Source: Dehalococcoidia bacterium (lineage in GTDB: Bacteria > Chloroflexota > Dehalococcoidia > SZUA-161 > SpSt-899). From it: a stretch of DNA of 64,000 nt. This document shows positions 2,170-33,908 of the stretch, piece after piece. The translations under genes were made by a program, and so were the position numbers. Position 1 is the stretch's first letter. Each line of letters starts with the position of its first letter. The notes below the pieces were generated by a model, which saw only the letters and a list, made by a program, of their open reading frames with translations, was not told the origin of the DNA and made no database searches. The stretch covers positions 1,704 through 65,703 of the forward strand of contig JAQTRE010000002.1 of NCBI GenBank assembly GCA_028711995.1. Direction: 5' to 3'.

Positions 2170-2856
2170 TTATTCGGGGGATACAACAACCTTGCGATTA
2201 TCACCAAAACCGATGCTGCCAGTGGTAACCGCTGGCGTATCTTTCAGTGTGATGTGTATGATTCTCCGCTCCGACGCTGGCATGGCCTCCAGCGTTATGG
2301 GCCTCTTGGAGGAGCTCACTACATCCGCAACCCTCAGGGCCAGGGCTTCCAACTCCTTCTGCCGCCGCTTCCGATATCCGCCAACATCAATGGTGACTCT
2401 GGCATTGCTTTCAAACTTCCGGCTGACCATGAAATTCACAATATACTGCAATGCCATGAGGCTCTGTCCCCGTCGCCCAATTAGAATCCCGAGATCGCCA
2501 TCGCTAATCTCGATCACCATGGGAGACTGATCATTTCCCTCTCCAGTCACCTCAACAGTGGCTGGCACATCCATCAGGGAGAGGAGCTTCTCCGTCGCCT
2601 CTCTGGCCACATCCGCCAGAGCGCTGATTTCTACCGGTGACTCACTCTCTTCTATTATCTCGTCGTCTGCTGATATCAGCGGGGTCACTCTGACCTTTGC
2701 ATCCTCCCCTCCCCATCGAAAGATGCCGCTCTTCCCCTCCTGTAATACCTCGATCGTTACTTCAGAGCGGCTCAGTCCCAGCTTGCTTAAAGCCAGATTA
2801 ACGGCTTCATCAACGTTTTTTGCGCTTATTTCCAGCGGTTCCATCCCGTTTACCAT
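2170..2856 (-). CDS. khpB: Jag/KhpB RNA-binding protein (Jag_N + KH + R3H domains). The track ORF runs to 2961, but the true start is probably the internal ATG (MVNGMEPLEIS) just after the yidC stop.
   Basis: MEPLEISAKNVDEAVNLALSKLGLSRSEVTIEVLQEG matches the Jag N-terminal domain. The C-terminus ...ERRIIHITLKD... is an R3H domain. It sits immediately downstream of yidC, which is the conserved position. Confidence 0.8.
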   Translation of the reverse strand: MVNGMEPLEISAKNVDEAVNLALSKLGLSRSEVTIEVLQEGKSGIFRWGGEDAKVRVTPLISADDEIIEESESPVEISALADVAREATEKLLSLMDVPATVEVTGEGNDQSPMVIEISDGDLGILIGRRGQSLMALQYIVNFMVSRKFESNARVTIDVGGYRKRRQKELEALALRVADVVSSSKRPITLEAMPASERRIIHITLKDTPAVTTGSIGFGDNRKVVVSPE

Positions 2857-3703
2857 CCTCTGCAATTGTACTTGCTTTGGTTTTCTTATTGGCCGATTTG
2901 AGATTCTTTGTAATGTTGGCGGAATAAGGTATTTCCTTCTTCTTCTTGGGCTCCTTTGCATCCGGGCCAGACGAAGTTCTGCCAGGTAACACGTTTGCCA
3001 GCTCTCCCCAATTCCCCATCACAAAATACTGCATGATGATGCGGAAGAGGTTCCCAACTACCACATATAGACCCAGTCCGCTGGGGAAAGCCATAAAGAT
3101 TAATCCAAACATGATGGGCATCATCCATTGCATCATGTTCTGCATTTGCTGCTGCTGGGGATCTGTCGATGGTGTGGCGGACATCTTTTGAGAAATCCAC
3201 ATGGACGCCATAATCAGGAGGGTGATGAATAAGTTGGGAGCGGCCATATCCAGCCAGAGAAAACTGTTATCTGGAGGTACGGCTTGCTGAACAGGTGACC
3301 ATGAATAGAGGTTCTGGGACAGCCCAAAGAGGCGCTCCGGCGTCGTTGCGAGGGATTGCATAATAGCCTGGTAGAGAGCAATCAGAATAGGCATTTGCAC
3401 CAGCAGCGGAAAGACACAGCCTAGGGGGTTTACTCCAGATTCCTTATAGAGCTTTAGAGTCTCTTGTTGAAGCTTTGCTTTATCCTTGGCGTATTTTTTC
3501 TGCAGTTCCTTCATCTTGGGCTGCAGCATCTGCATTGACTTGGTGGCTCTAAGCTGGCGTAGCGTCAAGGGAAGAACCGCCAGATTCACCAGTATCGTCA
3601 GGGCGATGATCGCCATTCCGAAACTGCCTCCAAATACTCCGGATAACACCAAGAGGCCATTGATCAGCGGTTCAAGCAGGATTTTATGCCAGAGTTCAAT
3701 CAA
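2810..3703 (-). CDS. yidC: Membrane protein insertase YidC, short form (297 aa, Gram-positive/Oxa1-like)
   Basis: Multi-TM protein with the YidC/Oxa1 core, a lysine-rich C-terminal tail and the conserved position in the rnpA-yidD-yidC-jag operon. Confidence 0.9.
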   Translation of the reverse strand: MIELWHKILLEPLINGLLVLSGVFGGSFGMAIIALTILVNLAVLPLTLRQLRATKSMQMLQPKMKELQKKYAKDKAKLQQETLKLYKESGVNPLGCVFPLLVQMPILIALYQAIMQSLATTPERLFGLSQNLYSWSPVQQAVPPDNSFLWLDMAAPNLFITLLIMASMWISQKMSATPSTDPQQQQMQNMMQWMMPIMFGLIFMAFPSGLGLYVVVGNLFRIIMQYFVMGNWGELANVLPGRTSSGPDAKEPKKKKEIPYSANITKNLKSANKKTKASTIAEDGKRDGTAGNKRKKR

Positions 3704-3715
3704 GGTTCTTCCTCG

Positions 3716-4891
3716 CTATTTCTGATCCAGCGATGCTAACAAAAGCGAGACGCCTGTTTGGGCATCCAGCGCATAGAGATCATCATGCCGATTGAGATAA
3801 TAGACGGTATTGCCCTCGACCCACGGGTCGGCGTATATCTTTCCCAGATTCTGAGGCAGCCACTTCTCCTTGCCTGTTTCAAGGTCGATTCCATAGACAA
3901 AACCCTGATCAGACTTGCAGGCTACCAGTAGCAAATTATGTTCAGGAACAACGACTGTGGCTGACCTGATCGGTCCTGCAGTTGATACCGGTGGGCTCCA
4001 TCTGGATTTACCCGTAGCGGCATCGATGGCATAGACGTTTTTATCCAGCGAGCCAATATAGATCGTGCCGTTGTGGTATGCAGCTTTGCTCCAGAACCAG
4101 TCATTTGCCTTGAAAGGTTCATCCCACTTTTGATCGCCCGTTTCGGCATCAAGGGCATAGAATTTACCCTCGAAGGTGCCAACGTAGATGGTGCCATCGA
4201 CAATCAAGGGTTCCGCTGCAACTGGTGCGTCGAATCCCTTTTCCCAGAAGAGCTTGCCCGAGGCCAGAGTGACGGCATAAAGCTTGTGCCCGAGGCTGCC
4301 GAAATAGACTTTGTCGCCCGCAATAGCCGGGCTCGACCATATTTTACCGCTGGCTTTGAAGGGTTTAGCCCAGAGAAGGGTGCCATCCGAGGTATTGATG
4401 GCATACAGCTTGTTGTTGGACGCCACGACGAGCGTGGTCCCGGAAAGCACAGGGCTGGCGACAATGGGACCTTTTGTCTCTACAGGCCGCCACATCTCCA
4501 TGCCGGTTATTGCATCTACAGCGTAAATTTTCCCGTCATACGCAGCAATGTAGGCAATTCCGTCCGAGACAACGGGTGCACCGTAGTTGACCAGGTCCGA
4601 AGAGGTGGTCGATTCACATCCGAAGAAATTTGTTTGTTTTTCTCCGATTCTGGGGGTCAGATTGACGGGAACCTTGCCTGGATTTGACAGGTCTATGGCC
4701 AAGAACATGCCGTTCTTCTGCGAAGTGGCATAGAGGGTATTGTCGGATACTACTGGGCCAGCCCATCCGTCAGGGGTAGATATGCGCCCCACACATCCTA
4801 CAAGGAACAAGCTACAGAGGAGGAGGATGAACAGGAGCTTCGCGACTGGTTTAATTTGTGAAATTGGCATCGGTCTATATAAAAATTGCAT
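3716..4891 (-). CDS. PQQ-repeat beta-propeller lipoprotein, BamB-like (391 aa)
   Basis: Signal peptide with a lipobox (LFLVGCVG). Repeated YA.D..TG...W / G.VY.G blades are typical of PQQ-like/BamB beta-propellers. It is inserted between yidD and yidC. Confidence 0.7.
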   Translation of the reverse strand: MQFLYRPMPISQIKPVAKLLFILLLCSLFLVGCVGRISTPDGWAGPVVSDNTLYATSQKNGMFLAIDLSNPGKVPVNLTPRIGEKQTNFFGCESTTSSDLVNYGAPVVSDGIAYIAAYDGKIYAVDAITGMEMWRPVETKGPIVASPVLSGTTLVVASNNKLYAINTSDGTLLWAKPFKASGKIWSSPAIAGDKVYFGSLGHKLYAVTLASGKLFWEKGFDAPVAAEPLIVDGTIYVGTFEGKFYALDAETGDQKWDEPFKANDWFWSKAAYHNGTIYIGSLDKNVYAIDAATGKSRWSPPVSTAGPIRSATVVVPEHNLLLVACKSDQGFVYGIDLETGKEKWLPQNLGKIYADPWVEGNTVYYLNRHDDLYALDAQTGVSLLLASLDQK

Positions 4892-4902: not shown

Positions 4903-5112
4903 TTAAGGCACCGGGTCTACTCCGCCCTTGGCAAAGGGATTACATCGGACAATGCGCTTGGCGGTCAGCCACCCGCCTTTCAAAAACCCATATCGGCTGA
5001 TCGCTTCATACCCGTACTCCGAGCATGTTGGCTGATAGCGGCAGGCAGGTGGCAATACAGGGGAAATTGCTTTCTTATAGAAGCTGATCAAGGCCAGGGC
5101 AATCTTCTTCAT
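4903..5112 (-). CDS. yidD: Membrane protein insertion efficiency factor YidD
   Basis: 69 aa, ...[26 protein letters not shown]... is the YidD signature, and it lies directly after rnpA. Confidence 0.9.
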
Positions 5113-5460
5113 CTAGTTTCTCACCAGTAGATCGGCTCGATTCATTAGCCCGATCAAGGCTGCCTCTATATCATCATAGCGCGCCCCGGCAGCTCGATTT
5201 CTAGCGATGATCACGATGTCCCAGCCCGGTTGAATCGGATTCAGCCTCACCGCCTCACGCAAGAGCCGTTTTACCCTGTTTCGTAAGACGGCCTTTTTCC
5301 CTACTTTTTTGCTGACAACAAAGCAAAACCGACTGACCTCCAAGCCGTTTGGCATGGCTCTCAGGACCATAAAGTCATTAGCCGAAGCCTTCCCGCACTT
5401 GAAGACTGCATCGATTTGCGAACCCCTGTTAAGCCGTTCCCCTCTTCGCATCTGTGCCAA
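5113..5460 (-). CDS. rnpA: Ribonuclease P protein component
   Basis: 115 aa basic protein (…KKVGKKAVLRNRVKRLLREA…) in the RnpA family, immediately downstream of rpmH. Confidence 0.9.
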   Translation of the reverse strand: MAQMRRGERLNRGSQIDAVFKCGKASANDFMVLRAMPNGLEVSRFCFVVSKKVGKKAVLRNRVKRLLREAVRLNPIQPGWDIVIIARNRAAGARYDDIEAALIGLMNRADLLVRN

Positions 5461-5480: not shown

Positions 5481-5618
5481 CTATACAGTCAATTTATGAC
5501 GACCTGCCAGTCGCCTTCGGCTCAAAACTGCTCGCCCGTCCTTTGTGCTCATCCTGTGCAAAAAACCGTGCTTGCGTTTCCTGGGAATTTTCTTTGGTTG
5601 ATAAGTTCTTTTTGGCAT
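5481..5618 (-). CDS. rpmH: 50S ribosomal protein L34 (45 aa). Absent from the ORF track because it is under the size cutoff.
   Basis: Hand translation of the reverse complement gives [45 protein letters not shown] followed by a stop. This is the canonical L34 sequence, in the canonical position ahead of rnpA. Confidence 0.9.
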
Positions 5619-5644: not shown

Positions 5645-5674
5645 ATTATACCCTTATATGAGTTCTCTTGGCAA
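5645..5674 (-). promoter_or_regulatory. Candidate sigma-70 promoter for the rpmH-rnpA-yidD-yidC-jag operon
   Basis: On the minus strand: TTGCCA (-35), 18 nt, TATAAT (-10; the plus strand reads attata at 5645-5650). The -35 lies in the loop of an 8-bp hairpin (gagttctc/gagaactc, 5660-5687) that may also terminate gyrB. Confidence 0.45.
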
Positions 5675-5703: not shown

Positions 5704-7695
<1,992 letters not shown>

Positions 7696-8769: not shown

Positions 8770-10461
8770 CTAAATCCCGGAGGCTTTCTCCGGCTCCGAC
8801 CGTGGAGATGTGGACTCTACACTGATATTCCGCTTCCCCTGCAGGGGGATTTCTTTGAGGAAGACTGTGGCTGCCAATGCAATCAGCGCCACGATTAATC
8901 CTATAAGAAATACCTCGGTGATGGCCGAGGAAAGCGCGTGCCGTAGCGCGTCCACGAGTTGTTGGAACAGCCCTTCGCCTTGGGGGCCCAGCTGGTTGAA
9001 CTGGGAATGAAGTTGCTCCTGAGCTTCAGGACTGACAAGCGCTTGTGGGTTGTGTGCCATTGATGAAAGTTGCCCCTGCTGTAGGGCATCCTTGACACTT
9101 GGTGGGACTGCGTGCGTCAGGTCAGAGGAGAATCGGTTGGTCATCACCGAGCCAAAGACAGCCAGCCCCAGAGTGCCGCCAATAGAGCGAATGAACTGAA
9201 TGGACGATGTGGCCACGCCCATCAGGCGGTAGGGGACCGCGTTCTGAACAGCAATAGTAAAGACGGGCATTGTTATGCCAAGCCCGAATCCCATAAGCGC
9301 AATGTTAAAGATCGTCTGCCCGTGTGTGGTACCTACCGTCATCCGGGAAAGCAAGCCTGTACCAAGCGCCATGACCGTTAACCCCACCAGCGCTTGAGTC
9401 CGATAGTGGCCTCCCATGCGGGAAAGTGCCTGTCCGGAAAGAATACTGCCAGCTACCATTCCCAGCATCATAGGGGTGAGGAAACTACCGCTGCTGGTCG
9501 CCGATGAACCCAGCACCCCCTGGAAAAAGAGCGGGATGAACACAATACCGCCGAACATGCCGAATCCGGTGAGAAAAGTGGCGATCATCGAAATGCCAAT
9601 AATACGGCCCCGAAAGATACTAAGGGGGATAAGGGGCTCAACGGCACGCGACTCCACCCAAAAGAAAAGGCCGGCTGAAATTACTCCAAAGGCTAACGTC
9701 CCGATGATCTGTGCTGAAATCCATGCATATTCCGACCCACCCCAGGAGAGACCCAGTAGAATGGGTACCACCGCCAGCACCAGCGTAATCACGCCCAGAT
9801 AATCAAGGCGCTGTCCGGTGGCTGCCGGTTGCACCTTGGGAAAGAACAGGATAAAGAAAATGATCGCCGGGATACCGACCGGGATGTTGATGAAGAAAAT
9901 CCAGTGCCATGAAAGGTTATCGGTAACAAAGCCTCCGATCATGGGGCCGATCACAGCTGATAGGCCAAAGACCGCAGTGATAATCCCGGAATACTTACCC
10001 CGCTCTGCAGGCGGAAAGAGATCTCCGATAATGATGAAGGAATTGGCCATCATCACTCCAGCACCGATGCCCTGGAAGGCCCGGAAAAGAATGAGCTGGG
10101 TCATCGTCTGGCTGAGCCCTGAGAGAATAGATCCCAGCAGAAAGATGGCAATCCCGACGATGCAAATCCATTTTCTCCCGTAAATATCCGTCAGCTTGCC
10201 TATAATGGGTACTACCGTGGTGGAGGTTACCAAATAGGCTGTGGTCACCCAGGTATAATGGGCGAATCCGCCGAGGTCGGCGATGATACGTGGCATGGCA
10301 GTGCCCACTACTGTCGAGTCCATAGACGACAAAAACATGGCCAGCATCACTGCGGCCATGGTGAGCACTATCTGGCGTCTGGGTAAAGAGTGGAATCCTG
10401 CGGTGTCGCCCCCGTCCCAGCCGTGATCCTTTGTTTCTGTCTGATCCGTTTTCGGCATCAT
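8770..10461 (-). CDS. MFS transporter, DHA2 (EmrB/QacA-like, 14-TMS) drug:H+ antiporter family. The likely start is MMPKTDQ; the track ORF extends to 10530.
   Basis: Hydrophobic multi-TM protein with the MFS motifs (…[11 protein letters not shown]…) and about 14 predicted helices. Confidence 0.8.
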
Positions 10462-10596
10462 ATGCTTCTCTGAAGATGTCTTGATGCATTCTCCGGTGCA
10501 GAACGAGGAATATCCGCGCCGTTGTGTCAATACCCCATCTCAGATGCTGGTTTTCCGCATCAACGCTCCCCTATCTGAGGACTCTTCACATTGGTT

Positions 10597-11904: not shown

Positions 11905-13338
11905 TCAGGACTCACTCAATTCTTCTCTGCGCCGAATCCACATTGCCGGCACAAGCGCCAGCAGGCACACGATTGCAGCGGCAAGGAAGAAGTTGTGAAA
12001 GAGGTCCAGCACCAGCGGGGGGAGTTTATCCTCAATTTGTTGCAGTGACATCCCGGCTGCCATTACATGAAAATGACCCATTCCCCATGAATTCATCAGC
12101 GCCAGCCCGATGATCATCCCGATCATGCGCATTGATGTCACCAGTGCCGAGGCGACCCCCCGATCTCCCTCACCGACTGAGTTGAGGACAGCAGTGGTGA
12201 TAGGCGCGATGACCAGCCCAAATCCAAGGCCGCACATTACCAGGTGTATCGTGAGCCAGGGTTCAGCCACTGAATCTGTCCACCGCCACAAAAACAAGAA
12301 CCCCCCGGCGCTCAGGAGCAACCCCACAGCCGTGGGAATGCGATATCCCAATCGATGGCACAGAAAACCTCCTATCACCGCTCCGATAGGGATAGCAAAG
12401 GTAAGCCGCCCCAGCCTCAGTCCCAGTCCCACGCCTTCCACTCCCATAAGTGTAGCAGCCATTACGGGAACGATAACAATAGCGATGATAAGCGCGCCAC
12501 CGATGAACAAATGAGTGATGTTAGCCGCAGAGAAGGTGCTATCTCTAAACAGATGAAGTTTGACAAGAGGCTCTGCCGCCCTCTGTTCTCGAAGGATAAA
12601 CAACCCGAAGAGGAAGATGGAAGCTAACAGCAAACCAGCCATATAAAACTCGGCATTTGGACGGTGCAGTTGTTGCGAGAGCCCAATGCTCATGAAAGCA
12701 AGCGCCGCCGCAATCATCAGACCACCCCGGTAATCCACCGATGCCCGGACCTGCTGGCTCGGTTTTACAAAAAAGTATATCAGTGGAATAACTATCAGCC
12801 CCACAGGAACGTTGATCCAGAATATCCAATGCCAATCGAGATATTCGGCAATTACAGAACCATACAGAGGACCGAGCGCTCCTCCCAGTTCCACTGCCCC
12901 GCCGAGAATTCCCAGGGCGATGGCTCTTCTGGCTAGCGGATAGGTATCCCCGATAATAGCCATGCCAACTGGCACTACCGCCCCCCCCCCAATTGCCTGC
13001 ACCACCCGGGCGGCCAGAATATAGTTAAAGCTGGCCATCAATGCAATCAGTACTGAGCCTACCATAAAAACCAGCAGCGAGAGGATGTACATTCGACGAT
13101 GACCGTAGACGTCGGAGATTCGCCCCACCAGAGGCATCGCGAACGTATATCCCAGAAGATAGCCACTGACTAGCCATGACACTTGGTCCAGGCGGGTGAC
13201 ATTCATGTGAAGATCAAACATGATCTCATTGAGAGCGCCGTATATCACTGTCTGGTCAAGGGCAGCAACAAAAATGCCAGCACAAACAGCAAAGAGGATG
13301 AGATTATGGGAAGGGACTCTCGTCTTGGATTCTTCCAT
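11905..13338 (-). CDS. MFS transporter (DHA family; P55-like partner of the upstream LprG-type lipoprotein)
   Basis: 477 aa with 12-14 TM helices and MFS signatures (…GRISDVYGHRRM…). It lies directly downstream, on the minus strand, of the lipoprotein gene at 13380-14087. Confidence 0.8.
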   Translation of the reverse strand: MEESKTRVPSHNLILFAVCAGIFVAALDQTVIYGALNEIMFDLHMNVTRLDQVSWLVSGYLLGYTFAMPLVGRISDVYGHRRMYILSLLVFMVGSVLIALMASFNYILAARVVQAIGGGAVVPVGMAIIGDTYPLARRAIALGILGGAVELGGALGPLYGSVIAEYLDWHWIFWINVPVGLIVIPLIYFFVKPSQQVRASVDYRGGLMIAAALAFMSIGLSQQLHRPNAEFYMAGLLLASIFLFGLFILREQRAAEPLVKLHLFRDSTFSAANITHLFIGGALIIAIVIVPVMAATLMGVEGVGLGLRLGRLTFAIPIGAVIGGFLCHRLGYRIPTAVGLLLSAGGFLFLWRWTDSVAEPWLTIHLVMCGLGFGLVIAPITTAVLNSVGEGDRGVASALVTSMRMIGMIIGLALMNSWGMGHFHVMAAGMSLQQIEDKLPPLVLDLFHNFFLAAAIVCLLALVPAMWIRRREELSES

Positions 13339-13379
13339 AATGGCAGGCTAGAGGCACAGCGTGCGGTTCTTCTTTGGAA

Positions 13380-14087
13380 TCATTCGGGTAACTGGATGGT
13401 GACGGGCTGGTTGAATCTGGAAATGTCCAGTGTCCTGATGATGCCCTCCTTCTCGTCCTCACAAATTCGGCCATCGAAGACAACTTTGCGAAGCAGGAAA
13501 TCCTCGACGCCGATCCAGATATCGGTCCTGACAGGCAATCCTTCAGCAGCATGCCCCACGGCGATGGAATTCAGCGTTTCAGAAAACAGGGTTCCGCTCA
13601 TATGAAAGCATATGACCCCGCCTGACTTTTCGTCCGTCATCATCGAAAGTCCGGTGACGCTTTCCATCACCGCCTTGATGCCAGTACCAGGCTGGAACAG
13701 TGAGACAGCGTTAAAATCTTCCGAAAGAAGTTCCCAACTACTGTTCAGGGGATTGGTCATATAGGTCACCGTGCCGACGGTGATCAGTTCCGCCTCAACG
13801 AACATTCGGCCCCATGTGGCCTCGATCTTCATCTTGAGCTTATCGGGCGGCGCAATATCGCCAGAAGCTCCGGTCATCTCGAGTCCCATATTTATCGGGG
13901 TCCCACCACCTTCCTGGCTTAGAGCAAAATGGAAACTGGTCAGGTTATCCAGTTTGGGCGAGGCCGTAGCGATGATCTCTTCCGGCGTAAGGGAAGAGGC
14001 CGATAGTGTCGGAGTGGAGTCCTCATCCTTTCCGCAAGCGCATACCAAGAGCGCCAACATCAAACCGAAAAGGAGTATTTGTTTCAT
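13380..14087 (-). CDS. Lipoprotein of the LppX/LprAFG (LprG-like) family. The start is taken at MKQILLFGL; the track ORF extends to 14123.
   Basis: Signal peptide plus lipobox (LLVCACGK). The architecture and length resemble mycobacterial LprG/LppX (…TSFHFAL…, …FVEAELITVGTVTYMTNP…, …TDIWIGVEDFLL…). It sits in an operon with an MFS transporter, as in lprG-p55. Confidence 0.5.
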   Translation of the reverse strand: MKQILLFGLMLALLVCACGKDEDSTPTLSASSLTPEEIIATASPKLDNLTSFHFALSQEGGGTPINMGLEMTGASGDIAPPDKLKMKIEATWGRMFVEAELITVGTVTYMTNPLNSSWELLSEDFNAVSLFQPGTGIKAVMESVTGLSMMTDEKSGGVICFHMSGTLFSETLNSIAVGHAAEGLPVRTDIWIGVEDFLLRKVVFDGRICEDEKEGIIRTLDISRFNQPVTIQLPE

Positions 14088-14419
14088 TTGCCTTCCCCCG
14101 TTGCTTTTACTGTTGCTGGTCATGCCGCCGGCTCCTATCGAAGACGAGTCTTTGACTGGAAATCCTTCTTCTAGAAGTCATTGAAGGAGACTCCCTCTTC
14201 TTTCGGCCGATTTTCCCGAGCCCGGCAGAGAACCTCAGAGAATTGGGGCGGTACGCACCCGGCCATTGTTTGTATTATAATCGCCACATCCGCGGAAGTG
14301 AAGGAAACAGGGGCTGTGATATTTCATGGCCGAAGATGAACTAAATCTCTCGTCACAGAGATGCAGTGAAGTGCAGTGCCTGACCAAAGGACGGATGGCT
14401 GTACGGCGCATCCGTTATT

Positions 14420-17347: not shown

Positions 17348-17920
17348 ATGTTAACAACAGCGCAGAACGCCCCCAACGGAAAATACGCCATTGACGATCC
17401 CGAGATCTTCGCGGGAGATATGGAGATATACATTGCTCCGCCTTTTGACAATGCTCATGTAATAAACATCATGAGACAGATGAAGAAGCATAAATGCAGA
17501 TTTCAATACTCCAGCGGCTCGCACCGGGATGGTTGCTTGATCGCCGTTTATCTCGATGAGCCACAAGCCATGGTCAGTATTCTAGCCGATACCCCTGGCA
17601 TCAACGATGTCCGGATAACTCCGGTACTGGAATCTAAATTCGAACAGTCTCACGGGCAATCCCGGCAGTTGCTTATGTCTGGAAGAATGAATGTTCATCG
17701 GATAACGGTCACTGTGGAACCCCGCAAGGTAAGGGCCGTGGAAGGCGGGCGAGAAGGCATCGCCGACGGCCAAAATGTGAAGAGCCCCGCTCACAAGGCC
17801 AACGAGACAGGCATCTTTAATCCGGAAAGATCAACGGATAGTTACTCTCGACGTGTCACCTTTGATGCCCGAGGAGGAGCGTTCGGGGCAAGGGCGAATG
17901 CGATACCACGCATCGTTTAG
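17348..17920 (+). CDS. Hypothetical protein (190 aa) directly upstream of pilT
   Basis: A good RBS (aaggaga) precedes the ATG at 17348. There is no recognisable domain, and the C-terminal half is Arg/Gly-rich and of low complexity. Confidence 0.4.
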   Translation: MLTTAQNAPNGKYAIDDPEIFAGDMEIYIAPPFDNAHVINIMRQMKKHKCRFQYSSGSHRDGCLIAVYLDEPQAMVSILADTPGINDVRITPVLESKFEQSHGQSRQLLMSGRMNVHRITVTVEPRKVRAVEGGREGIADGQNVKSPAHKANETGIFNPERSTDSYSRRVTFDARGGAFGARANAIPRIV

Positions 17921-17967
17921 TGAAGCAGTGTTTGGCTTTTTCAATTCTGTTTCTCAGGGAGGGAAAA

Positions 17968-19059
17968 ATGGAAATCAATGAACTACTGCGTTTGGCGGAT
18001 CAGAAGAATGCCTCAGACCTTCACCTCATGGTCGGAGTCCGTCCGGCGCTGAGGGTCGACGGACAGTTGATAAATATTCAATGTGAGCCGATTACTCCTG
18101 CTGAGCTGATACAGGCTTTCAATTCGGTGACAGATGAGAATCAGCAGAGCACATTCTCTCGCGATTTGGAGCTGGATTTTGCCTATACTGTCCCACATGG
18201 ATCTCGCTTCCGGGCTAATGCTTGCCGGCAGAAGGGAACCATCAGCCTCGTCTTCCGACACCTAGAGTCACCCCCAATCAACATCGAGGCTATCGGTTTG
18301 CCCCTGGTCTGCAGGGACCTGGCCCTCAAACCGAATGGATTGGTGTTGGTAACCGGACCCTCGGGATGCGGCAAATCGACCACGTTAGCAGCAATGATAC
18401 AGCACTTGAATCAAACCAGGGAACGACGAGTTATCACCATTGAGGACCCCATCGAGTATGTTTACGCCAGCGATCGGTGCATGATCTCGCAGCGAGAGGT
18501 GGGATCTGACACCCATTCGTTCGCTCAGGCGCTGAAGCATGTGCTTCGGCAGGACCCGGAAGTCATTCTGGTTGGGGAAATGCGAGATGTTGATACGGCG
18601 ATGATGGTGCTGACGGCCGCGGAGACCGGCCAATTGGTGTTGTCCACGGGGCATGCTTCCAATGCTCCCAGTTCAATTGACAGGATAATTGATCTGTTTC
18701 CCCCGAATCAGCAGATCTTCGCCCAGGCAAGACTGGCCGAGGTGCTTCAAGGAGTATTATCCCAGAGATTGCTGGCTCGTGTGGATGGATCAGGACGAGT
18801 TCCCGCAGTGGAGGTCATGCTGGGAAACCCGGCGGTGAAGAGCCTCATTCGGGAAGGCAAGATACACCAACTAGCCAACGTTATCCGCACCGGTCAGCAA
18901 TTGGGTATGCGGTCTATGGATGAATCTCTGATACACCTTTACGATGCAGGGCTGATAAGCAGAGAGGCGGTATTGACGTACTGTGTGGATTACGGCGAAA
19001 CAGTAAGAATCGTTGGTGAGCCATTGACATCTGGTGTTACCGGGCGATTGCAGCTTTAA
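17968..19059 (+). CDS. pilT: Type IV pilus retraction ATPase PilT. The start is taken at MEINELLRL; the track ORF begins at 17920.
   Basis: Walker A GPTGSGKST-type (here GPSGCGKST), Asp box, Walker B, His box (LVLSTGHA) and the PilT-specific region are all present. An RBS (agggagg) precedes 17968. Confidence 0.85.
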   Translation: MEINELLRLADQKNASDLHLMVGVRPALRVDGQLINIQCEPITPAELIQAFNSVTDENQQSTFSRDLELDFAYTVPHGSRFRANACRQKGTISLVFRHLESPPINIEAIGLPLVCRDLALKPNGLVLVTGPSGCGKSTTLAAMIQHLNQTRERRVITIEDPIEYVYASDRCMISQREVGSDTHSFAQALKHVLRQDPEVILVGEMRDVDTAMMVLTAAETGQLVLSTGHASNAPSSIDRIIDLFPPNQQIFAQARLAEVLQGVLSQRLLARVDGSGRVPAVEVMLGNPAVKSLIREGKIHQLANVIRTGQQLGMRSMDESLIHLYDAGLISREAVLTYCVDYGETVRIVGEPLTSGVTGRLQL

Positions 19060-19086: not shown

Positions 19087-22000
19087 TTAGGCCATCGGGC
19101 TTTGCTGTTCTCCCATAACCCTGAAAAACACGCCAATGATGGCGGGATCAAACTGGCTTCCGCTGCATCTTTGCAATTCGGCCATCGCTTCTGTGTGCGA
19201 CATCACATCAGCATAGGATCGGGCAGAGGTCAGGGTATCGTAAGTATCAGCTACGGAGATGATCCTGGCACGGATTGGAATCTCTATGCTCTTCAACCGG
19301 CCCGGATATCCGCTGCCATCATACCATTCATGATGGTGGCGGATATCCGGCACAATGTCCGCCAGGTCTTTGACGTGTTCCACAATCTTCGCTCCCTCGG
19401 CAGAGTGCCTTGTGAGGAGCGCCCACTCTTCTTCCGTAGGTTTTCCCGGTTTGCTCAGGATCGCATCAGAGACGCCGAATTTACCGATATCGTGCAGGAT
19501 GGCGGCAGAGTGCAACTTTACCAGGTCCATCTGAGTCAACCCCATCGCCTTGCCAATCCTTTCACACAGACCTGCTACCCTTGTAGCATGACCATACATT
19601 TCTTTGTCCCTGGCATCTACTGCGGCGGCCAGAGCATAAATCTGGTCCAGCGTCGCCAAGCCCAAGACTCCCGAAGCTGCCAGCTCGTCCAGATCGGACA
19701 CCCGCGTGGTGGTAGCCCCCCCGCGTCGCTTTGACTGATAAAGAGCGATATCAACCAGATTCATCAGGCTGTCTATGGTATCTCCATCATCGGGGAAGTC
19801 AACTATCCCTGCACTGATCTGCAAAAGCATCTCTGAGGAAGGAAAACTGGACTTGACTCTCTCCTCCCATTTTTGTCTGATGCGCCTAGCAATCTTGTCT
19901 GCTTTTTTAACATGAGTTGAGCGCACCAGCAGGATGAACTCGTCGCCGCCGTAGCGAAAAACCATGTCATTGTTCTTAAGAGAAGTTTCCAGCAGTCGGG
20001 CGAACTCTTGAAGGACCTTATCGCCATTTGTGTGCCCGTAAGTGTCATTGTACAGCTTGAATCGATCGAGGTCGAGCATTACCAGCGAGAATGAACTGCC
20101 GTCTGCAAGGGCTCGGTTGATCTCCGTTTCGACCACATCGTAGAAACGGCGGCGATTCGGAACGCCGGTCAACTCATCGGTTACACTCAGGCGACGTAAT
20201 TCTTCCTCGGCCTGTCTACGCTCCGTGACGTCACGAATGACAGCAAGGTACGTCACTGCCTTTCCCTCGCTGAAAATTGGAGAATGGGTCACCTCGCCAA
20301 ATCGTACGGCTCCGTCTTTGGAGATGAATTTATAGGTTGGATTGGGAAGCGTCTCACCTGCGAAGATGTGATCTAGATTGTGATGCAGTTCCTGCAATGA
20401 ATCCTCTGCGATGACGCCTATCTCCAGCCATCTCTTTCCCATCAGTTCCGCGAGGACATATCCGCCAAGCCTCTCAGCCGAGGGCGAAACGTCAATAAGC
20501 CTGAGTTCCTGGTCAAACTCAGCGATGACATCGGATACATTCTCGAAATGGAGCCGGTATCGCTCCTCACTATGACGCAGCGCTTCTTCTGCAACCAGCC
20601 GGGCAATACCTTCCCCCACATGTCCTGTGATCTGCTCGAGTGCAATACGAGCGTGGACGGAAAATCTTTCTTCAGTGTGAGAAGTTACGTGGAGGCAGGC
20701 GACCAACCGGCCCTCATGAACAATCGGAAGTATTGCAATGGCCCGCAGACCCTCCATCTGCTCTGCTTCTTTTGAAGGTATGTTAACCTTCGAGAACTCA
20801 GTATACAGTGGCACCGCGTTCATCACCAGACGGGTATTGGGGGAATCGGGGCCATAGTATGAAACAGAATCAATGAAATCGGCTGATAATCCGTGGTGAC
20901 ATACCAGCCTTATTCCCCCTGTATCTTCATCAACGAGGTAGATGCCTCCCGAGTCCATTCCGGAGGCGGCGATGGCCGCCTCAAGGCACAGGGCGGCGCC
21001 CTTATCGAGTTCGTCGGTAGCAGATAAGGATTGAGCCAGATTCTGCTGAATGGCGGACTGTTTCTCTGCCCGTTTTCGGTCGGTGATGTCCGAGGTCAAA
21101 CCATAGAAATACCGTTTGCCGTCTTGCTCATAGGAATTAACGGCTCTGGTATATAACCATAGCCATTCCCCGTCCTTTCGCCTGAACCTGTGCTCGATAG
21201 CAAAGTAAATCCCTTCCTCATCGAGGGCCCTCAAAGCAATTTTCACATTGTTGAGGTCATCAGGGTGAACGTTTCCCAGCCAACCACGGATTCCTCCCTG
21301 ACGCAGTTCTTCCGGCGCACATCCCATGATTGCCTGCACATTGGGGCTAACGAAAGCGATCCCCTTTCCCTGCTCGACTATCCACACGGTATCCGGAATG
21401 TTGTTCACCACAGTACGGTATTTCTCTTCACTCTCGCGGAGCGCCCTTTCCGCTTGCCTTCGCTCCGTTACATCTCGCACCACAGAGGTATACGCTGTAA
21501 TCTTTCCTTCCACAATAAGGGGGGTATTGGTTACCTCGCCAAGTTTAATCGTTCCGTTCTTGCAGATGAACCTGTAGGTACGAGGCGGCATCGCTTCGCC
21601 GGGAAGGAAGTGGTTCAGGTTGAAAACGATCTCCTGCGCTGATTTCTCTGAGATGATGCCAACATCGACCGCCTTCCTGCCGATCAACTCGGATGGTGTA
21701 TATCCCAGCATCGTTTCGATTGACGGTGAGACATCGAGAATGCGAATCTCTGTGTCAAAGCTGACGATGATGTCGGACGCATTCTGAAAGTGGAGCCGAT
21801 ATCGCTCTTCGCTCGCGGCGAGCGCTTTCCAGGCTCGCGTCTTCTCCAAAGCATTGCCTATGATGTCGGCGGATAGCTGGAGCAGGGCTCTGTCATCCTC
21901 TTTCCACTTTCCGGCTGTGGAAACATTGTCAAAACCGATGAGCCCTGCCCACCGGTTTGCCATAAACAGAGGAACAATGATGAGTGATTTGATTTCCTGG

Positions 22001-23517
22001 CTCTCCAGAAGCAATCGGAGATTTCTCTCCCGGGTATTCTCAAGGGAAAGCATGGAAACATCTGGAATGTGCATCCCCTCTCCGGAGCGCATCTTGTCCA
22101 CACCTTCGAATTTATTGCAGGGTATTCCTTGCAGATTACTTATCTGGGGAGATACTCCCTCGGCGCACCACTCGTGGGTGTTGTCGATGATATTGCTATC
22201 TTCTCGCAACAGAAACAGATAAGCTCGATGGGCTCCGCTCAGCACAGCCATATCCTGCAGTGCCTCTTTGATGGCGCTGTCAATATCGTCATTCCCCACA
22301 AATCGAGCAGAGATGATGGCTATGGTCTTCTCGAACTCCAGCCGGCGGTTTATATTCTCCTGTGCGCGCTTACGTTCGGCGATTTCCACAGTTAATTTGT
22401 CGCGCGAAACGGTTGTTGTCCTGAGTGTCTCAGCCATCCGGTCAAACGAACGGGAGAGATCGCCGAGTTCATCCCTGTCCTTCGCGTTCATCCGGTAATC
22501 CAGATTGCCCCGGCTGATCTCCTCTGCTCCCTGCGAAAGACGACGGACCGGTAAGGTAATAGTACGGCTGAAAAACAGGGCCAGGAATATCACCCCCAGC
22601 GCCATACCGGCACCGATGATCAAAATTATGTTCCGTAAATTGCGGACCGGTGTAAATGCTTCGGCTTGATCTACCTCTGTCTGAATGTATAACTTCCACT
22701 CCGGTATCCATTGACCGGCTCCAATGACCGGCACGCCCCGGTAGTTATGGTACAGGCCGTGGAAAGCAATGGGTCCGCCCGGATTGGGGGGCGCTTCCCT
22801 GTTCACGGCCAGAACGGCTTGGTCCTGAACATTTCCCTTACCAAATTCCGGGACGGTGACAAACTGATAGGATTCATCAATCAGGCATGTGTTCTGGGTT
22901 TGCTTTGAATCGGCCCCTCTGGCCAGAATGTCGGAGGACAGCTCCTGTATATCGACGCGACCTGCAAGCACAGCGACAAGGTTGCCTTGATTGTCTTTGA
23001 CGGGCATTCCGATAACAATGGCGGAGGTTGACGACGGAGGAGACTGGCAGCAGACAGTCTGGACATACATCCCTTGCTTACCTTCCTCAAAAAAAGGCTC
23101 CCCCACCCCGTATTGTCCCTCTCTGGCCTCATTCGAGGAGACAAACACCAGTCCATCGCTGGCTCTGAGGAGAAACATTTCGTCCAAACCGACCCCTTCA
23201 ATTGCCGCCGCGAAGAGACGATCAACGATACCCTGACGGGCTTCCCGGTATGCTGGGTCCGTCCGGTCAAGTGATCCCATCGCTTTCAATTTCTCCAACA
23301 TGTAGGAATGGGCAGACAGTATATCGACCGCAGTCTCATTAGAATTCATCCAGCCTGTGAACTGTGTAGCCTTGTAGGCGTTGATTGAGATGAGGTTTTC
23401 CAGCGTGTCATCTTCGATGGTTTTCCGGCCATGGTCATAAGCCACGTAACCAACAATGATCACCGGGATGAGAGAAAGAAGGAGGAAAATCAGGATTAAC
23501 TTGGTGGCTAGTTTCAT
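19087..23517 (-). CDS. Multidomain c-di-GMP signalling protein (1476 aa): TM, periplasmic dCache-like sensor, TM, HAMP, GAF, PAS x2, GAF, PAS, GGDEF, HD-GYP
   Basis: An N-terminal TM helix, an extracytoplasmic region of about 260 aa and a second TM helix are followed by …RYGGDEFILL… (GGDEF) and a C-terminal …ILHDIGK…HHEWYDGSGYP… (HD-GYP). Several PAS and GAF signatures are visible between them. Confidence 0.85.
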   Translation of the reverse strand: MKLATKLILIFLLLSLIPVIIVGYVAYDHGRKTIEDDTLENLISINAYKATQFTGWMNSNETAVDILSAHSYMLEKLKAMGSLDRTDPAYREARQGIVDRLFAAAIEGVGLDEMFLLRASDGLVFVSSNEAREGQYGVGEPFFEEGKQGMYVQTVCCQSPPSSTSAIVIGMPVKDNQGNLVAVLAGRVDIQELSSDILARGADSKQTQNTCLIDESYQFVTVPEFGKGNVQDQAVLAVNREAPPNPGGPIAFHGLYHNYRGVPVIGAGQWIPEWKLYIQTEVDQAEAFTPVRNLRNIILIIGAGMALGVIFLALFFSRTITLPVRRLSQGAEEISRGNLDYRMNAKDRDELGDLSRSFDRMAETLRTTTVSRDKLTVEIAERKRAQENINRRLEFEKTIAIISARFVGNDDIDSAIKEALQDMAVLSGAHRAYLFLLREDSNIIDNTHEWCAEGVSPQISNLQGIPCNKFEGVDKMRSGEGMHIPDVSMLSLENTRERNLRLLLESQEIKSLIIVPLFMANRWAGLIGFDNVSTAGKWKEDDRALLQLSADIIGNALEKTRAWKALAASEERYRLHFQNASDIIVSFDTEIRILDVSPSIETMLGYTPSELIGRKAVDVGIISEKSAQEIVFNLNHFLPGEAMPPRTYRFICKNGTIKLGEVTNTPLIVEGKITAYTSVVRDVTERRQAERALRESEEKYRTVVNNIPDTVWIVEQGKGIAFVSPNVQAIMGCAPEELRQGGIRGWLGNVHPDDLNNVKIALRALDEEGIYFAIEHRFRRKDGEWLWLYTRAVNSYEQDGKRYFYGLTSDITDRKRAEKQSAIQQNLAQSLSATDELDKGAALCLEAAIAASGMDSGGIYLVDEDTGGIRLVCHHGLSADFIDSVSYYGPDSPNTRLVMNAVPLYTEFSKVNIPSKEAEQMEGLRAIAILPIVHEGRLVACLHVTSHTEERFSVHARIALEQITGHVGEGIARLVAEEALRHSEERYRLHFENVSDVIAEFDQELRLIDVSPSAERLGGYVLAELMGKRWLEIGVIAEDSLQELHHNLDHIFAGETLPNPTYKFISKDGAVRFGEVTHSPIFSEGKAVTYLAVIRDVTERRQAEEELRRLSVTDELTGVPNRRRFYDVVETEINRALADGSSFSLVMLDLDRFKLYNDTYGHTNGDKVLQEFARLLETSLKNNDMVFRYGGDEFILLVRSTHVKKADKIARRIRQKWEERVKSSFPSSEMLLQISAGIVDFPDDGDTIDSLMNLVDIALYQSKRRGGATTTRVSDLDELAASGVLGLATLDQIYALAAAVDARDKEMYGHATRVAGLCERIGKAMGLTQMDLVKLHSAAILHDIGKFGVSDAILSKPGKPTEEEWALLTRHSAEGAKIVEHVKDLADIVPDIRHHHEWYDGSGYPGRLKSIEIPIRARIISVADTYDTLTSARSYADVMSHTEAMAELQRCSGSQFDPAIIGVFFRVMGEQQSPMA

Positions 23518-24544: not shown

Positions 24545-26164
24545 GTGAAAATGGTGGATAAGGTAGGCATGATAAAACTCAGTTTTCAATGGAAGCTGCT
24601 GTCTGTGGGATTGATGAGCATGGTTGCATTTGTGGTATTGTTGCTGGTCGGCGCCGTTCCCGACACAGCTAAGACCACTCTTATGACCATTGGCGGTGCT
24701 TTGGCTGCTGTGTCTCTGATTGCTCTGGTTATTCTCTCGCAATATGCGGGCAAGAATATTAAAGAGTTGGCCAAAACTGCCGATAGGATCAGCCATGGAG
24801 AGTTGGGTTTCAACATTGATCTCAAGTCCAAGGATGAAATAGGAGACCTAGCCACCTCACTGCGGAGTGCCGCCGTATATTTCAAGGAGTTGGCTTCCAC
24901 GGCTGAGAAGGTGGAGGCAGGGGATCTATCTCTGTCATTCACGGCGAAATCCGAGAGAGACGTCCTCGGTAATGCCTTTGCAAACCTGACCAAGTGCTTC
25001 AAAGACATCATCGGCAAAGTGGCCGGTGATGCCAAAGAGATGGATTTAGCTAGTGACCAACTCGCCGCATCGGCCACTCAGGCAGATTCCGCAACGCAAC
25101 AGGTTGCCAGCACCAGTCAGCAGATGGCGAAAGGTGCCAGCGATCAGGCCGCGAGTTGTCAGGAAACAGCCAAGGCGGTAGGTCAATTGACTGAAGTTGT
25201 TGCCCAGATTGCCAAGGGCGCTCAGGAACAGGCCGAGGGAGTCCATAAAGCGACTTCATCCATAGCGGAACTGTCCTCCGGGGCAGATCAGGTAGCGAAG
25301 AATGCCCTTGCTGCTGCCGGGGGATCCAAAGCAGCAACGGAGGCTGCCAACAAGGGTGCGGAACAGGCCAAACAGGCAGTCGAAGGGATGAAACGAGTCA
25401 GAAACAGTGTGGAAGCAGCCTCGCAGAAGGTTTCCGATCTGGGGCAGAAGTCCGAGGCGATCGGCAAAATTGTAGCGGTGATCGATGATATTGCCGCCCA
25501 GACCAATCTTCTGGCGCTGAATGCCGCCATCGAGGCGGCTCGGGCCGGAGAACATGGGCGGGGATTTGCGGTTGTGTCCGATGAAGTCAGGAAGCTGGCA
25601 GAGCGGACGGCCCAGGCCACCAAGGAGATTGCCGATCTCATCAGCAACGTGCAAAAGGGTGTGGGAGAGGCAGTGAAAGCGATGCAAGAGGGGACCAATG
25701 AGGTGAACGGAGGGTACAAACTGACCAGCGAGGCGGGCGAATCTCTGGAAGATATTCTGAAAGCGTCGACGGAAGTCAGTGTGCAAATCGAACAGATATC
25801 GGCTGCGGCCCAGCAGATGAGCGCCTCTGCCAATGAGATGGTAACCATCATCGATAGTGTTGGGAGCGTTACGGAAGAGAACACGGCAGCGGCCGAAGAG
25901 ATGTCCGCGAATGCGCAGCAGGTGAGCAATTTGATCGAAACAGTCGCCGGGGTGGCAGAGGAGAACAGCGCCGCAACCCAGCAGGTGTCGGCTTCCGCCG
26001 AAGAGATGAGTGCTCAGATGCAGGAAGTGGTGGCCTCATCCCAGTCGCTGAAGCAAATGGCTGAAGCGTTCATGATATTGATGTCCCTTTTCGGGAGCAC
26101 TGATGATGAGGGCGACTCACAGGAGACCGAACCTGAGCGTGACAAAGTGCTGGTTGGAGCCTAA
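24545..26164 (+). CDS. Methyl-accepting chemotaxis protein (539 aa: two TM helices with a minimal loop, HAMP, MA signalling domain)
   Basis: The highly conserved MCP signature …[39 protein letters not shown]… is present. Confidence 0.9.
25050..26075 (+). repeat. Paralogous repeat: the MCP1 signalling-domain coding DNA is highly similar to 27625-28655 in MCP2
   Basis: Long stretches are near-identical by eye. For example, 25441-25640 versus 28020-28220 differ only by scattered third-position changes, as do 25790-26070 versus 28370-28650. Confidence 0.8.
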
Positions 26165-26266
26165 GAGAAAGTGCGGAGGGGAGAGGATTGGGGAATGACT
26201 ATGAGTCAGGAGATTGTCCTTACTGCTTATTGCCATTGACCCCAGTATCACCCAAAAGGAGGGCAG

Positions 26267-28741: not shown

Positions 28742-28859
28742 AGATGATGTGAAGGAAGAGGGACTAAGGAAAAACTCTTTCCCCCCAACTGGGCAGAAAC
28801 TTTGTGATAGCCAATAGAGCGGTGAGTTGACCGGGTGAAACAAGTGGAGGGCAATTGAT

Positions 28860-29933: not shown

Positions 29934-29965
29934 CCGGCCGCCTGCTGGCTGATCTAGGAGCAGAA

Positions 29966-33881: not shown

Positions 33882-33908
33882 GCCCGAAGAAGGAAACAAG
33901 GAGAATAA

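What the first reader, a model, noticed from the sequence alone, without database searches (positions are those of the whole stretch)
3716..4891. BamB-like PQQ beta-propeller lipoprotein inserted inside the universally conserved rnpA-yidD-yidC-jag operon
The rpmH-rnpA-yidD-yidC-jag gene order is among the most conserved in bacteria. Here a 391-aa lipoprotein with PQQ-like propeller repeats sits between yidD and yidC on the same strand, with only 11-12 bp gaps. That implies co-transcription with the membrane-protein insertase. BamB-type propellers assist outer-membrane protein assembly in diderms. A dedicated partner of YidC in this lineage would be new.
Basis: partly seen in the sequence, partly recalled or inferred. 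Interest (0 to 1): 0.5.

Follow-up and report, generated by a model that had tools for sequence, protein, structure and literature searches.

The report
Propeller lipoprotein fixed beside YidC insertase
In this Dehalococcoidia genome, and in every related genome or metagenome fragment that could be checked, a lipid-anchored eight-bladed propeller protein is encoded directly in front of the membrane-protein insertase YidC, which points to an undescribed outer-face helper of YidC, though no physical contact has been shown.

Summary
On the minus strand the order is rpmH, rnpA, yidD, a 391-aa PQQ-repeat protein (3716-4891), yidC, jag, ileS. The gaps flanking the PQQ gene are 11 and 12 nt, and a GAGGA ribosome-binding site lies in the gap before yidC.

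The protein has a signal peptide and a lipobox Cys33, conserved in 82/82 orthologues. It folds as an 8-bladed propeller (pLDDT 92). It belongs to Pfam PQQ_2 but is not a true BamB: it scores 126 bits against a 285-bit cut-off, and by sequence it is nearer to archaeal and Gram-positive surface propellers.

The insertion is not a recent accident:
- 77 of 79 evaluable propeller-anchored GTDB species loci have yidC directly downstream.
- All 74 evaluable YidC-anchored metagenome loci have the propeller directly upstream.
- Propeller identity falls to about 30% and the outer flanks differ.
- In one rearranged genome the propeller stayed with yidC-jag, not with rnpA-yidD.
- A published D. mccartyi transcript network links DET1041 (PQQ protein) with DET1039 (Jag).

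Most likely it is a lipid-anchored scaffold or chaperone on the outer face of the single membrane, working with YidC (confidence about 0.45). Physical interaction is untested. No paper found describes this. I rate it a new variant of a known kind.

The parts
3716..4891 (-). Gene for the PQQ-like 8-bladed beta-propeller lipoprotein (391 aa; mature part from Cys33)
4793..4891 (-). Signal peptide plus lipobox (residues 1-33, LVGC with Cys33). The start may be M1 (4891) or M8 (4870).
   Evidence: Sequence. Cys33 is conserved in 82/82 orthologues, and a PROSITE-like lipobox is present in 74/82.
3704..3715 (-). 12-nt gap between the propeller gene and yidC, containing the Shine-Dalgarno GAGGA (3714-3710) 6 nt before the yidC TTG start
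2810..3703 (-). yidC, short form without an N-terminal anchor or large outer domain. It has a conserved, lengthened extracytoplasmic loop at about residues 119-156.
   Evidence: PF02096 at 5.7e-52 and TIGR03592 at 188 bits. Insertion relative to E. coli and B. halodurans YidC. Loop conservation in 158 clade YidCs.
2170..2856 (-). jag/khpB (Jag_N, KH and R3H domains). The likely start is M36 or M40 of the listed ORF, overlapping the yidC 3' end by 35-47 nt.
   Evidence: (NF041568, 185 bits)
4903..5112 (-). yidD (membrane protein insertion efficiency factor), 11 nt upstream of the propeller gene
5113..5460 (-). rnpA (RNase P protein component)
5481..5618 (-). rpmH (ribosomal protein L34), first gene of the conserved six-gene block
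5645..5674 (-). Sigma-70-like promoter match (TTGCCA, 18 nt spacer, TATAAT; 11 of 12) just upstream of rpmH. This is a consensus match only.
   Evidence: The number of promoter-like sites in the region does not exceed the shuffled expectation.

Best explanation
The gene encodes a lipoprotein that is exported, lipid-modified at Cys33 and tethered to the outer face of the single cytoplasmic membrane. There its rigid 8-bladed propeller would act as a protein-binding scaffold or chaperone for the YidC insertase pathway. It is made from the same transcript as yidD, yidC and jag, so its amount would follow that of the insertase.

The YidC of this clade has no outer domain of its own. The propeller would supply one, for example by holding or organising exported loops and subunits of membrane proteins as YidC releases them. 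Candidate contact surfaces are the most conserved central blades 4-6 (W185, W265, W267) and the conserved, lengthened outer loop of YidC (about residues 119-156).

**Shown:** gene order, short gaps, lipobox conservation, fold, and conservation of the linkage across the clade.

**Inferred:** lipidation, co-transcription in this organism, physical contact with YidC, the contact surfaces, and the chaperone or scaffold activity.
For: 1. **Linkage seen from the propeller side.** Of 80 GTDB species loci retrieved with the propeller, 77 of 79 evaluable have yidC directly downstream on the same strand. Almost all also have yidD upstream.
2. **Linkage seen from the YidC side.** Of 80 metagenome loci retrieved with YidC, so unbiased with respect to the propeller, all 74 with enough upstream DNA have the propeller directly upstream.
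3. **Depth of conservation.** Linkage persists while propeller identity falls to 30-36% and the genes outside the six-gene block differ: gyrB, DegV, a metallo-beta-lactamase-fold protein and SLT upstream; ileS, ECH and PfkB downstream.
4. **Rearranged locus.** In L012 the rpmH-rnpA-yidD part is gone from upstream, but the propeller is still 11 nt from yidC-jag.
5. **Short gaps.** The median propeller-to-yidC gap is 19 nt. In the window it is 12 nt and holds a ribosome-binding site.
6. **Expression.** In D. mccartyi 195 the transcripts of DET1041 (PQQ repeat protein) and DET1039 (Jag) are joined by a strong network edge (0.90; correlation 0.93) (PMC5102406).
7. **Topology.** Cys33 is present in 82/82 orthologues after a hydrophobic segment. 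The organism has other lipobox proteins.
8. **Fold.** The nearest folds are scaffold propellers: BamB, YxaL and Rv3035.
9. **Precedents.** In the E. coli holotranslocon-BAM assembly, removing BamB weakens the YidC density, and YidC cross-links to BamABCD (PMC7695460). Mycobacterial Rv3035 is an 8-bladed propeller predicted to bridge FecB to the membrane enzyme AftB (PMC13041763). Eukaryotic EMC pairs the YidC-superfamily subunit EMC3 with EMC1, which carries lumenal PQQ-like repeats (PMC7188443).
10. **YidC loop.** YidC in this clade has an extra 16-20 residues in an outer loop, with P122, Y133 and P143 at 95% or more in 158 sequences.
Against: - No physical, genetic or structural test of a propeller-YidC contact was possible.
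- A mirror-tree comparison did not single out YidC. Partial correlations were 0.28 for propeller-YidC, 0.37 for propeller-Jag and 0.21 for propeller-RnpA.
- No natural propeller-YidC fusion appears among about 350 listed homologue clusters.
- Gene order could reflect co-regulation with growth rather than contact.
- The conserved partner could be Jag or YidD rather than YidC.
- Actinobacterial YidC also lacks an N-terminal anchor without having such a neighbour (my own knowledge, not tested here).
- The propeller evolves faster than YidC (mean distance 1.24 against 0.92).
- The D. mccartyi complexome paper and its held supplements contain no mention of the protein.
Confidence: 0.45

Rival explanations
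1. The propeller is an envelope scaffold or sensor whose real partners are other exported or membrane proteins, such as cell-surface, S-layer, wall-synthesis or respiratory complexes, or a signalling kinase. It sits in the rpmH-jag operon only so that its expression follows growth. It does not touch YidC.
For: - The closest multi-domain relatives are membrane Ser/Thr kinases with an outer PQQ propeller (PF00069 plus PQQ_2, 31-35% identity).
- Rv3035 and YxaL show that such propellers serve varied partners.
- The mirror-tree signal is slightly stronger with Jag than with YidC.
- The published transcript edge is to jag.
Against: - Position directly upstream of yidC is essentially invariant in about 150 loci, with very short gaps.
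- In the one rearranged locus the gene stayed next to yidC.
- Mere growth-coupled expression would not need this exact position over such divergence.
Confidence: 0.3
2. The position is a frozen accident. The gene was inserted once in an ancestor and is kept there because breaking an essential operon is costly. There is no functional relation to the neighbouring genes.
For: - The rpmH-jag block is very stable in bacteria generally, so anything inserted may be carried along.
- The mirror-tree analysis gives no specific signal.
Against: - The gene itself is under clear purifying selection: the lipobox Cys and about 35 positions are conserved at 90% or more.
- It was lost in none of the 74 YidC-anchored loci.
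- It remained with yidC after a rearrangement.
Confidence: 0.12
3. It is an enzyme: a PQQ-dependent dehydrogenase, or a tetrathionate-hydrolase-like propeller enzyme acting outside the cell.
For: - Pfam PQQ and TIGR03075 give partial matches.
- One source names a relative 'glucose dehydrogenase'.
Against: - TIGR03075 scores 102 bits against a 480-bit cut-off.
- The mature protein is about 358 aa, a bare propeller, whereas quinoproteins are 550-600 aa decorated propellers (target lengths).
- The matches rest on the repeat motif.
- The best-conserved residues are structural repeat positions plus Trp residues, not an obvious catalytic set.
- The operon context is protein biogenesis.
Confidence: 0.08
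4. It is a true BamB that assists BamA in assembling outer-membrane beta-barrel proteins, meaning this lineage is diderm.
For: - It is an 8-bladed lipoprotein propeller.
- BamB is among the best structural matches.
- Many sources auto-name relatives 'outer membrane protein assembly factor BamB'.
Against: - The BamB equivalog models are far below cut-off: 126.5 against 285.2 bits, and 106.6 against 423 bits.
- Identity to BamB is only 19-23%.
- Chloroflexi share the outer-membrane gene pattern of monoderm Terrabacteria and lack LPS genes, and Dehalococcoides is described as monoderm.
- No outer-membrane biogenesis gene was found among the window ORFs scanned (mostly those of at least 180 aa), although 64 kb cannot exclude them.
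Confidence: 0.03

Closest known systems
BamB (YfgL), lipoprotein of the BAM complex of Proteobacteria
   Same: - It is an 8-bladed PQQ-like propeller of about 360-390 aa, anchored by an N-terminal lipid.
- It acts as a scaffold next to a membrane-protein insertion machine.
- In E. coli, BamB lies close to YidC in the holotranslocon-BAM assembly.
   Different: - Identity is 19-23%.
- It fails the NCBIfam BamB equivalog cut-offs.
- The host lineage is reported as monoderm, without BamA.
- It would be anchored to the cytoplasmic membrane, not to the outer membrane.
- It is encoded in the yidC operon, whereas E. coli bamB (yfgL) lies with yfgM.
EMC1 with EMC3 in the eukaryotic ER membrane protein complex
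   Same: A YidC/Oxa1-superfamily insertase subunit (EMC3) is paired with a subunit (EMC1) whose large domain on the non-cytoplasmic side carries PQQ-like propeller repeats.
   Different: - EMC1 is a roughly 1000-aa transmembrane protein in a 9-10 subunit complex.
- The Pfam EMC1 N-propeller model is hit only below cut-off (25 against 34 bits), as expected for any PQQ-like repeat.
- No homology beyond the repeat is shown. The parallel is functional and possibly convergent.
Rv3035 of mycobacteria (BamB-like propeller bound to FecB, predicted to bridge to AftB)
   Different: - Identity is 18%.
- Rv3035 has an N-terminal plug and an alpha-cap.
- Its partners are an arabinofuranosyltransferase and a binding protein, not YidC.
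- Its gene context is different.
YxaL of Bacillus and archaeal PQQ-like surface propellers (PDB 7dxn/7eq5, 3hxj)
   Different: - The entries are described as membrane-kinase-associated or plant-growth-promoting proteins.
- None is noted in those descriptions as linked to yidC, although their gene context was not checked here.
- Their cellular function is poorly defined.
P1 periplasmic domain of Gram-negative YidC, and the lipid-anchored N-terminus of Bacillota YidC (SpoIIIJ/YqjG)
   Same: Both are extracytoplasmic additions to the conserved five-helix YidC core. The propeller could be a separately encoded counterpart.
   Different: - P1 is a covalently attached beta-supersandwich, not a propeller.
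- In Bacillota, YidC itself is the lipoprotein.
- Here YidC has neither feature, and the lipoprotein is a separate gene product.

Membership tests
BamB (NCBIfam TIGR03300 / NF008351 equivalogs) | Whole-protein score at or above the curated equivalog cut-off | tested here: not met
   TIGR03300 scores 126.5 bits against 285.2. NF008351 scores 106.6 against 423.
BamB (NCBIfam TIGR03300 / NF008351 equivalogs) | Eight-bladed beta-propeller fold | tested here: met
BamB (NCBIfam TIGR03300 / NF008351 equivalogs) | N-terminal lipoprotein signal peptide with lipobox Cys | tested here: met
   LVGC with Cys33. The Cys is present in 82/82 orthologues, and 74/82 match a PROSITE-like pattern. Lipidation itself was not shown.
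BamB (NCBIfam TIGR03300 / NF008351 equivalogs) | Organism has an outer membrane with BamA, to whose POTRA domains BamB binds | not testable with these tools
   The whole genome is not available. No outer-membrane gene was found among the window ORFs scanned. The literature reports that Chloroflexi have the monoderm gene pattern and that Dehalococcoides is monoderm.
Pfam PF13360 PQQ_2 (PQQ-like repeat propellers) | Score above the gathering threshold, with repeats forming a propeller | tested here: met
   140.2 bits against 27.6. PF13570 also passes, at 145.6 against 133. The fold is confirmed.
PQQ-dependent dehydrogenases (TIGR03075 and relatives) | Score above the subfamily cut-off and a decorated propeller of about 550-600 aa | tested here: not met
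   101.9 bits against 480.05. The mature length is about 358 aa, whereas the quinoproteins are 559-669 aa.
PQQ-dependent dehydrogenases (TIGR03075 and relatives) | PQQ and metal-binding active-site residues | not tested
   No residue-level comparison with quinoprotein active sites was made.
EMC1 N-terminal propeller (PF25293) | Score above the gathering threshold | tested here: not met
   25 bits against 34. The resemblance is at the level of the generic PQQ-like repeat.
Accessory subunit of a YidC insertase (functional class, proposed) | Conserved co-operonic linkage with yidC across the clade | tested here: met
   77 of 79 evaluable propeller-anchored loci and 74 of 74 evaluable YidC-anchored loci. 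The gene was retained next to yidC after the rearrangement in L012.
Accessory subunit of a YidC insertase (functional class, proposed) | Physical association with YidC and an effect on insertion or folding of substrates | not testable with these tools
The D. mccartyi complexome paper and its held supplements do not mention the protein.

The most novel reading that the evidence does not exclude
The propeller is a stoichiometric outer-face subunit of a YidC holo-insertase found across Dehalococcoidia and neighbouring Chloroflexota lineages. It would dock on the clade-specific conserved YidC loop. That would make it a bacterial counterpart, convergent or ancient, of the EMC1-EMC3 pairing in eukaryotes and of the BamB-YidC contact seen in the E. 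coli Sec-BAM supercomplex. Propeller scaffolds would then be a recurrent solution for handling the exported parts of membrane proteins at Oxa1/YidC-type insertases, including in cells without an outer membrane.
Probability: 0.25. Interest if true: 0.8.

Novelty: new variant of a known kind. Interest (0 to 1): 0.55.

Why it matters
YidC/Oxa1 insertases are universal. [quoted passage not shown]

A lipoprotein propeller encoded directly before yidC in every evaluable locus of a large, environmentally dominant group (Dehalococcoidia and relatives, including organohalide respirers) would be the first candidate for such a subunit. It would give a simple system to ask how exported domains are handled after insertion in a cell with one membrane. 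It also offers a comparison for the EMC1-EMC3 arrangement in eukaryotes and the reported BamB-YidC proximity in E. coli.

On the practical side, hundreds of database entries in this clade are auto-named 'outer membrane protein assembly factor BamB', 'dehydrogenase' or 'serine/threonine kinase'. The window's own entry is annotated without its signal peptide. Both points deserve correction.

Tried and rejected
1. **Mirror-tree co-evolution.** I compared the propeller with YidC, Jag, YidD and RnpA (38 non-redundant loci). All pairs correlate through shared phylogeny, and the partial correlations do not single out YidC, so the test is uninformative.
2. **D. mccartyi orthologue.** A third homologue search with a Dehalococcoidaceae-type query returned only metagenome-assembled-genome proteins in its top 120. 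The link to DET1041 therefore rests on the paper's locus tags and names.
3. **Phylogenetic boundary.** Both collection scans return only the best 80 loci, and all evaluable ones carry the propeller. I found no lineage of this YidC type without it, and cannot say how far into other Chloroflexota classes it extends. The 'Anaerolineae' and 'Chloroflexia' labels are submitter names.
4. **Natural fusions.** I looked for propeller-YidC fusions in the Pfam columns of about 350 homologue clusters and found none.
5. **Complexome paper.** A text and supplement search of the D. mccartyi complexome paper gave no hits for PQQ, YidC or Jag.
6. **AlphaFold database.** The Foldseek library for it was not available.
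7. **Complex prediction.** It was not attempted.
8. **Internal promoter and terminator scan.** Counts equal the shuffled expectation. The hairpin at 3748-3767 is not evidence of termination.
9. **Rejected functional readings.** True BamB, and PQQ dehydrogenase.
10. **Paralogues.** There is no second propeller paralogue in the window.

Full report
**1. What is in the sequence**

On the minus strand the window carries, in order:
- gyrB (5704-7611)
- rpmH (5481-5618)
- rnpA (5113-5460)
- yidD (4903-5112)
- a 391-aa ORF (3716-4891)
- yidC (2810-3703)
- jag/khpB (2170 to about 2856)
- ileS, which runs off the window start

All the named genes except gyrB and ileS pass the curated Pfam or NCBIfam cut-offs. 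gyrB was named from its translation, and ileS from its translation and from the tRNA-synthetase gene that follows jag in related loci.

There are 11 nt between the yidD stop and the ATG at 4891, and 12 nt between the ORF's TAG and the yidC TTG. The second gap contains GAGGA six bases before the start codon. A promoter-like site with 11 of 12 matches lies just upstream of rpmH. Neither promoter-like nor terminator-like sites exceed the shuffled expectation in this region.

The organism is a Dehalococcoidia metagenome-assembled genome. The protein is identical to NCBI MDD5092875.1, which is annotated from V34 and therefore lacks the signal peptide.

**2. What the protein is**

It matches Pfam PQQ_2 (140 bits against a 27.6-bit cut-off) and Beta-prop_ACSF4.

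The N-terminus has a positively charged start, a hydrophobic stretch and LVGC. Across 82 operon-linked orthologues the Cys is invariant, and 74 fit a PROSITE-like lipobox. Another lipobox protein, an LppX_LprAFG homologue, is encoded in the window.

An AlphaFold2 model built on 76 homologues is confident (pLDDT 92, pTM 0.86). It shows eight blades and one poorly defined loop at residues 80-100.

By sequence, the nearest natural solved proteins are an archaeal PQQ-like protein (3hxj, 8e-37) and YxaL (1e-28). BamB is weaker, at 1e-18 to 2e-20.

The BamB equivalog models and the quinoprotein dehydrogenase model are far below their cut-offs. So it is a bare PQQ-like scaffold propeller with a lipid anchor. 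It is 'BamB-like' in fold and anchoring, but it is not a BamB family member and not a quinoprotein.

**3. Is the insertion conserved?**

Every context look-up of homologues from 67% down to 36% identity showed rnpA-yidD-propeller-yidC-jag, while the genes outside the block differed.

A scan of one genome per GTDB species with a propeller alignment gave 80 loci. I located the operon genes in them with phmmer:
- 77 of the 79 evaluable loci have yidC directly downstream on the same strand.
- One locus (L048) ends at the propeller.
- One (L080) has yidC adjacent but inverted at a contig end.
- One (L089, labelled Halobacteriales) is an unlinked paralogue.

That scan was anchored on the propeller, so it could not reveal absences. 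I therefore scanned metagenome contigs with an alignment of divergent YidC sequences. All 74 loci with enough upstream DNA have the propeller ORF directly upstream of yidC. The other six begin within about 250 nt of yidC.

Heuristic gene starts give median gaps of 34 nt (yidD to propeller) and 19 nt (propeller to yidC).

In L012 the propeller has acquired a roughly 330-aa N-terminal extension, and rpmH-rnpA-yidD are no longer upstream. It still sits 11 nt before yidC-jag. That single case suggests the link is to yidC-jag rather than to yidD.

Record labels are mostly Dehalococcoidia, Dehalococcoidales or Dehalococcoidaceae. A few are labelled Anaerolineae, Anaerolineales or Chloroflexia. Those loci have clearly more divergent YidC, so the arrangement probably extends beyond one order. 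I did not find its boundary.

**4. Expression evidence from a cultured relative**

[quoted passage not shown] The locus-tag spacing fits jag-yidC-propeller. That DET1040 is yidC is my inference.

No paper in the searchable library discusses a propeller next to yidC in Chloroflexi.

**5. Envelope type**

The window ORFs scanned with Pfam (mostly those of at least 180 aa) include no outer-membrane biogenesis gene, although 64 kb cannot settle the point. Published surveys report that Chloroflexi lack LPS genes and share the outer-membrane gene pattern of monoderm Terrabacteria. Dehalococcoides is described as having a monoderm envelope. A BamA-dependent role is therefore unlikely.

**6. How it most likely works**

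The clade's YidC is the short form. It starts directly with the amphipathic segment before the first core helix, and it has no signal anchor, no lipobox and no large outer domain. Compared with E. coli and B. halodurans YidC, it carries 16-20 extra residues in an outer loop. That loop is strongly conserved in 158 distinct clade sequences, with P122, Y133 and P143 at 95% or more.

In the propeller, the most conserved region is blades 4-6. Beyond the structural repeat motif, there are invariant or near-invariant Trp residues (W185, W265, W267) and a G-W pair just after the lipobox.

My best reading is a lipid-tethered propeller on the outer face of the membrane, made in step with YidC. It would serve as a docking or holding platform for exported parts of YidC substrates, or for partner proteins.

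Precedents exist:
- BamB lies near YidC in the E. coli holotranslocon-BAM assembly.
- Rv3035 is predicted to bridge FecB to the membrane enzyme AftB.
- EMC1, with PQQ-like repeats, is paired with the YidC-superfamily subunit EMC3.

Steps shown: gene order, fold, lipobox conservation, and linkage. Steps inferred: lipidation, co-transcription here, contact with YidC, the contact surfaces and the activity.

**7. Rivals**

| Rival | Confidence |
|---|---|
| Scaffold or sensor for other envelope partners, co-expressed only | 0.30 |
| Frozen insertion without functional relation | 0.12 |
| Enzyme | 0.08 |
| True BamB | 0.03 |

The mirror-tree test did not discriminate. No propeller-YidC fusions were found.

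**8. Verdict**

The functional claim is plausible but untested.

The protein family is known, and the genes are already annotated, often misleadingly. The apparently invariant coupling of a lipoprotein propeller to yidC across a large monoderm clade is not described in the literature I could search. I class it as a new variant of a known kind, with interest 0.55.

Noticed in passing
window 4793-4891 (-): The public annotation of this protein (MDD5092875.1, 358 aa) starts at V34, just after the lipobox Cys. It therefore omits the conserved signal peptide. Many relatives are auto-named 'outer membrane protein assembly factor BamB', 'dehydrogenase', 'glucose dehydrogenase' or 'serine/threonine kinase'.
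   Followed up: yes
L012 4011-5903 (+): This is a variant propeller of 630 aa. A roughly 330-aa N-terminal extension rich in G/N/S repeats, possibly a beta-helix (not tested), replaces the first blades. The locus lacks rpmH-rnpA-yidD upstream but keeps yidC-jag-ileS downstream.
   Followed up: partly
window 2810-3703 (-), YidC residues about 119-156: The extracytoplasmic loop of YidC is 16-20 residues longer than in E. coli or B. halodurans YidC. It is highly conserved in 158 clade sequences (motif TPE..GLSQ.LY.W...VP...FLWLDL). It is a possible docking site for the propeller.
   Followed up: partly
window 3748-3767 (-): A terminator-like hairpin followed by CGCTTTTGTT lies inside the last 50 nt of the propeller gene, just before yidC. 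The number of such sites in the region equals the shuffled expectation, so it may be chance.
   Followed up: no
window 11905-14123 (-): An MFS transporter gene is followed by an LppX_LprAFG-family lipoprotein (lipobox LVCAC). The pairing is reminiscent of the mycobacterial LprG-Rv1410c (P55) pair; this recollection is from my own knowledge. A second MFS gene lies at 8770-10530.
   Followed up: no
window 24545-39056 (+): This is a chemotaxis-type cluster in a Dehalococcoidia MAG. It holds two MCPs, a stand-alone CheB methylesterase domain, CheA, a CheX/CheC-like protein, CheB with a receiver domain, CheR and two HD-GYP-type (HD_5) proteins. A T2SSE-family ATPase lies at 17920-19059.
   Followed up: no
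window 19087-23517 (-): A 1476-aa multi-sensor protein combines Cache-like, HAMP, GAF, several PAS, GGDEF and HD-GYP (HD_5) domains.
   Followed up: no
window 1 to about 2110 (-): ileS follows jag and runs off the window start, so the ORF tool does not list it. The same jag-ileS adjacency occurs in L004, L005 and L012.
   Followed up: yes
window 48223-49314 (-): There is a strong match to PF01950 FBPase_3 (598 bits). As far as I recall, this is the archaeal-type bifunctional fructose-1,6-bisphosphate aldolase/phosphatase family.
   Followed up: no
propeller residues 68-106 (window about 4574-4690, -): A long, low-confidence loop lies between blades 1 and 2. It carries a Cys (C92) present in 51 of 82 orthologues, and invariant Y103 and P106. 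Its role is unknown.
   Followed up: no
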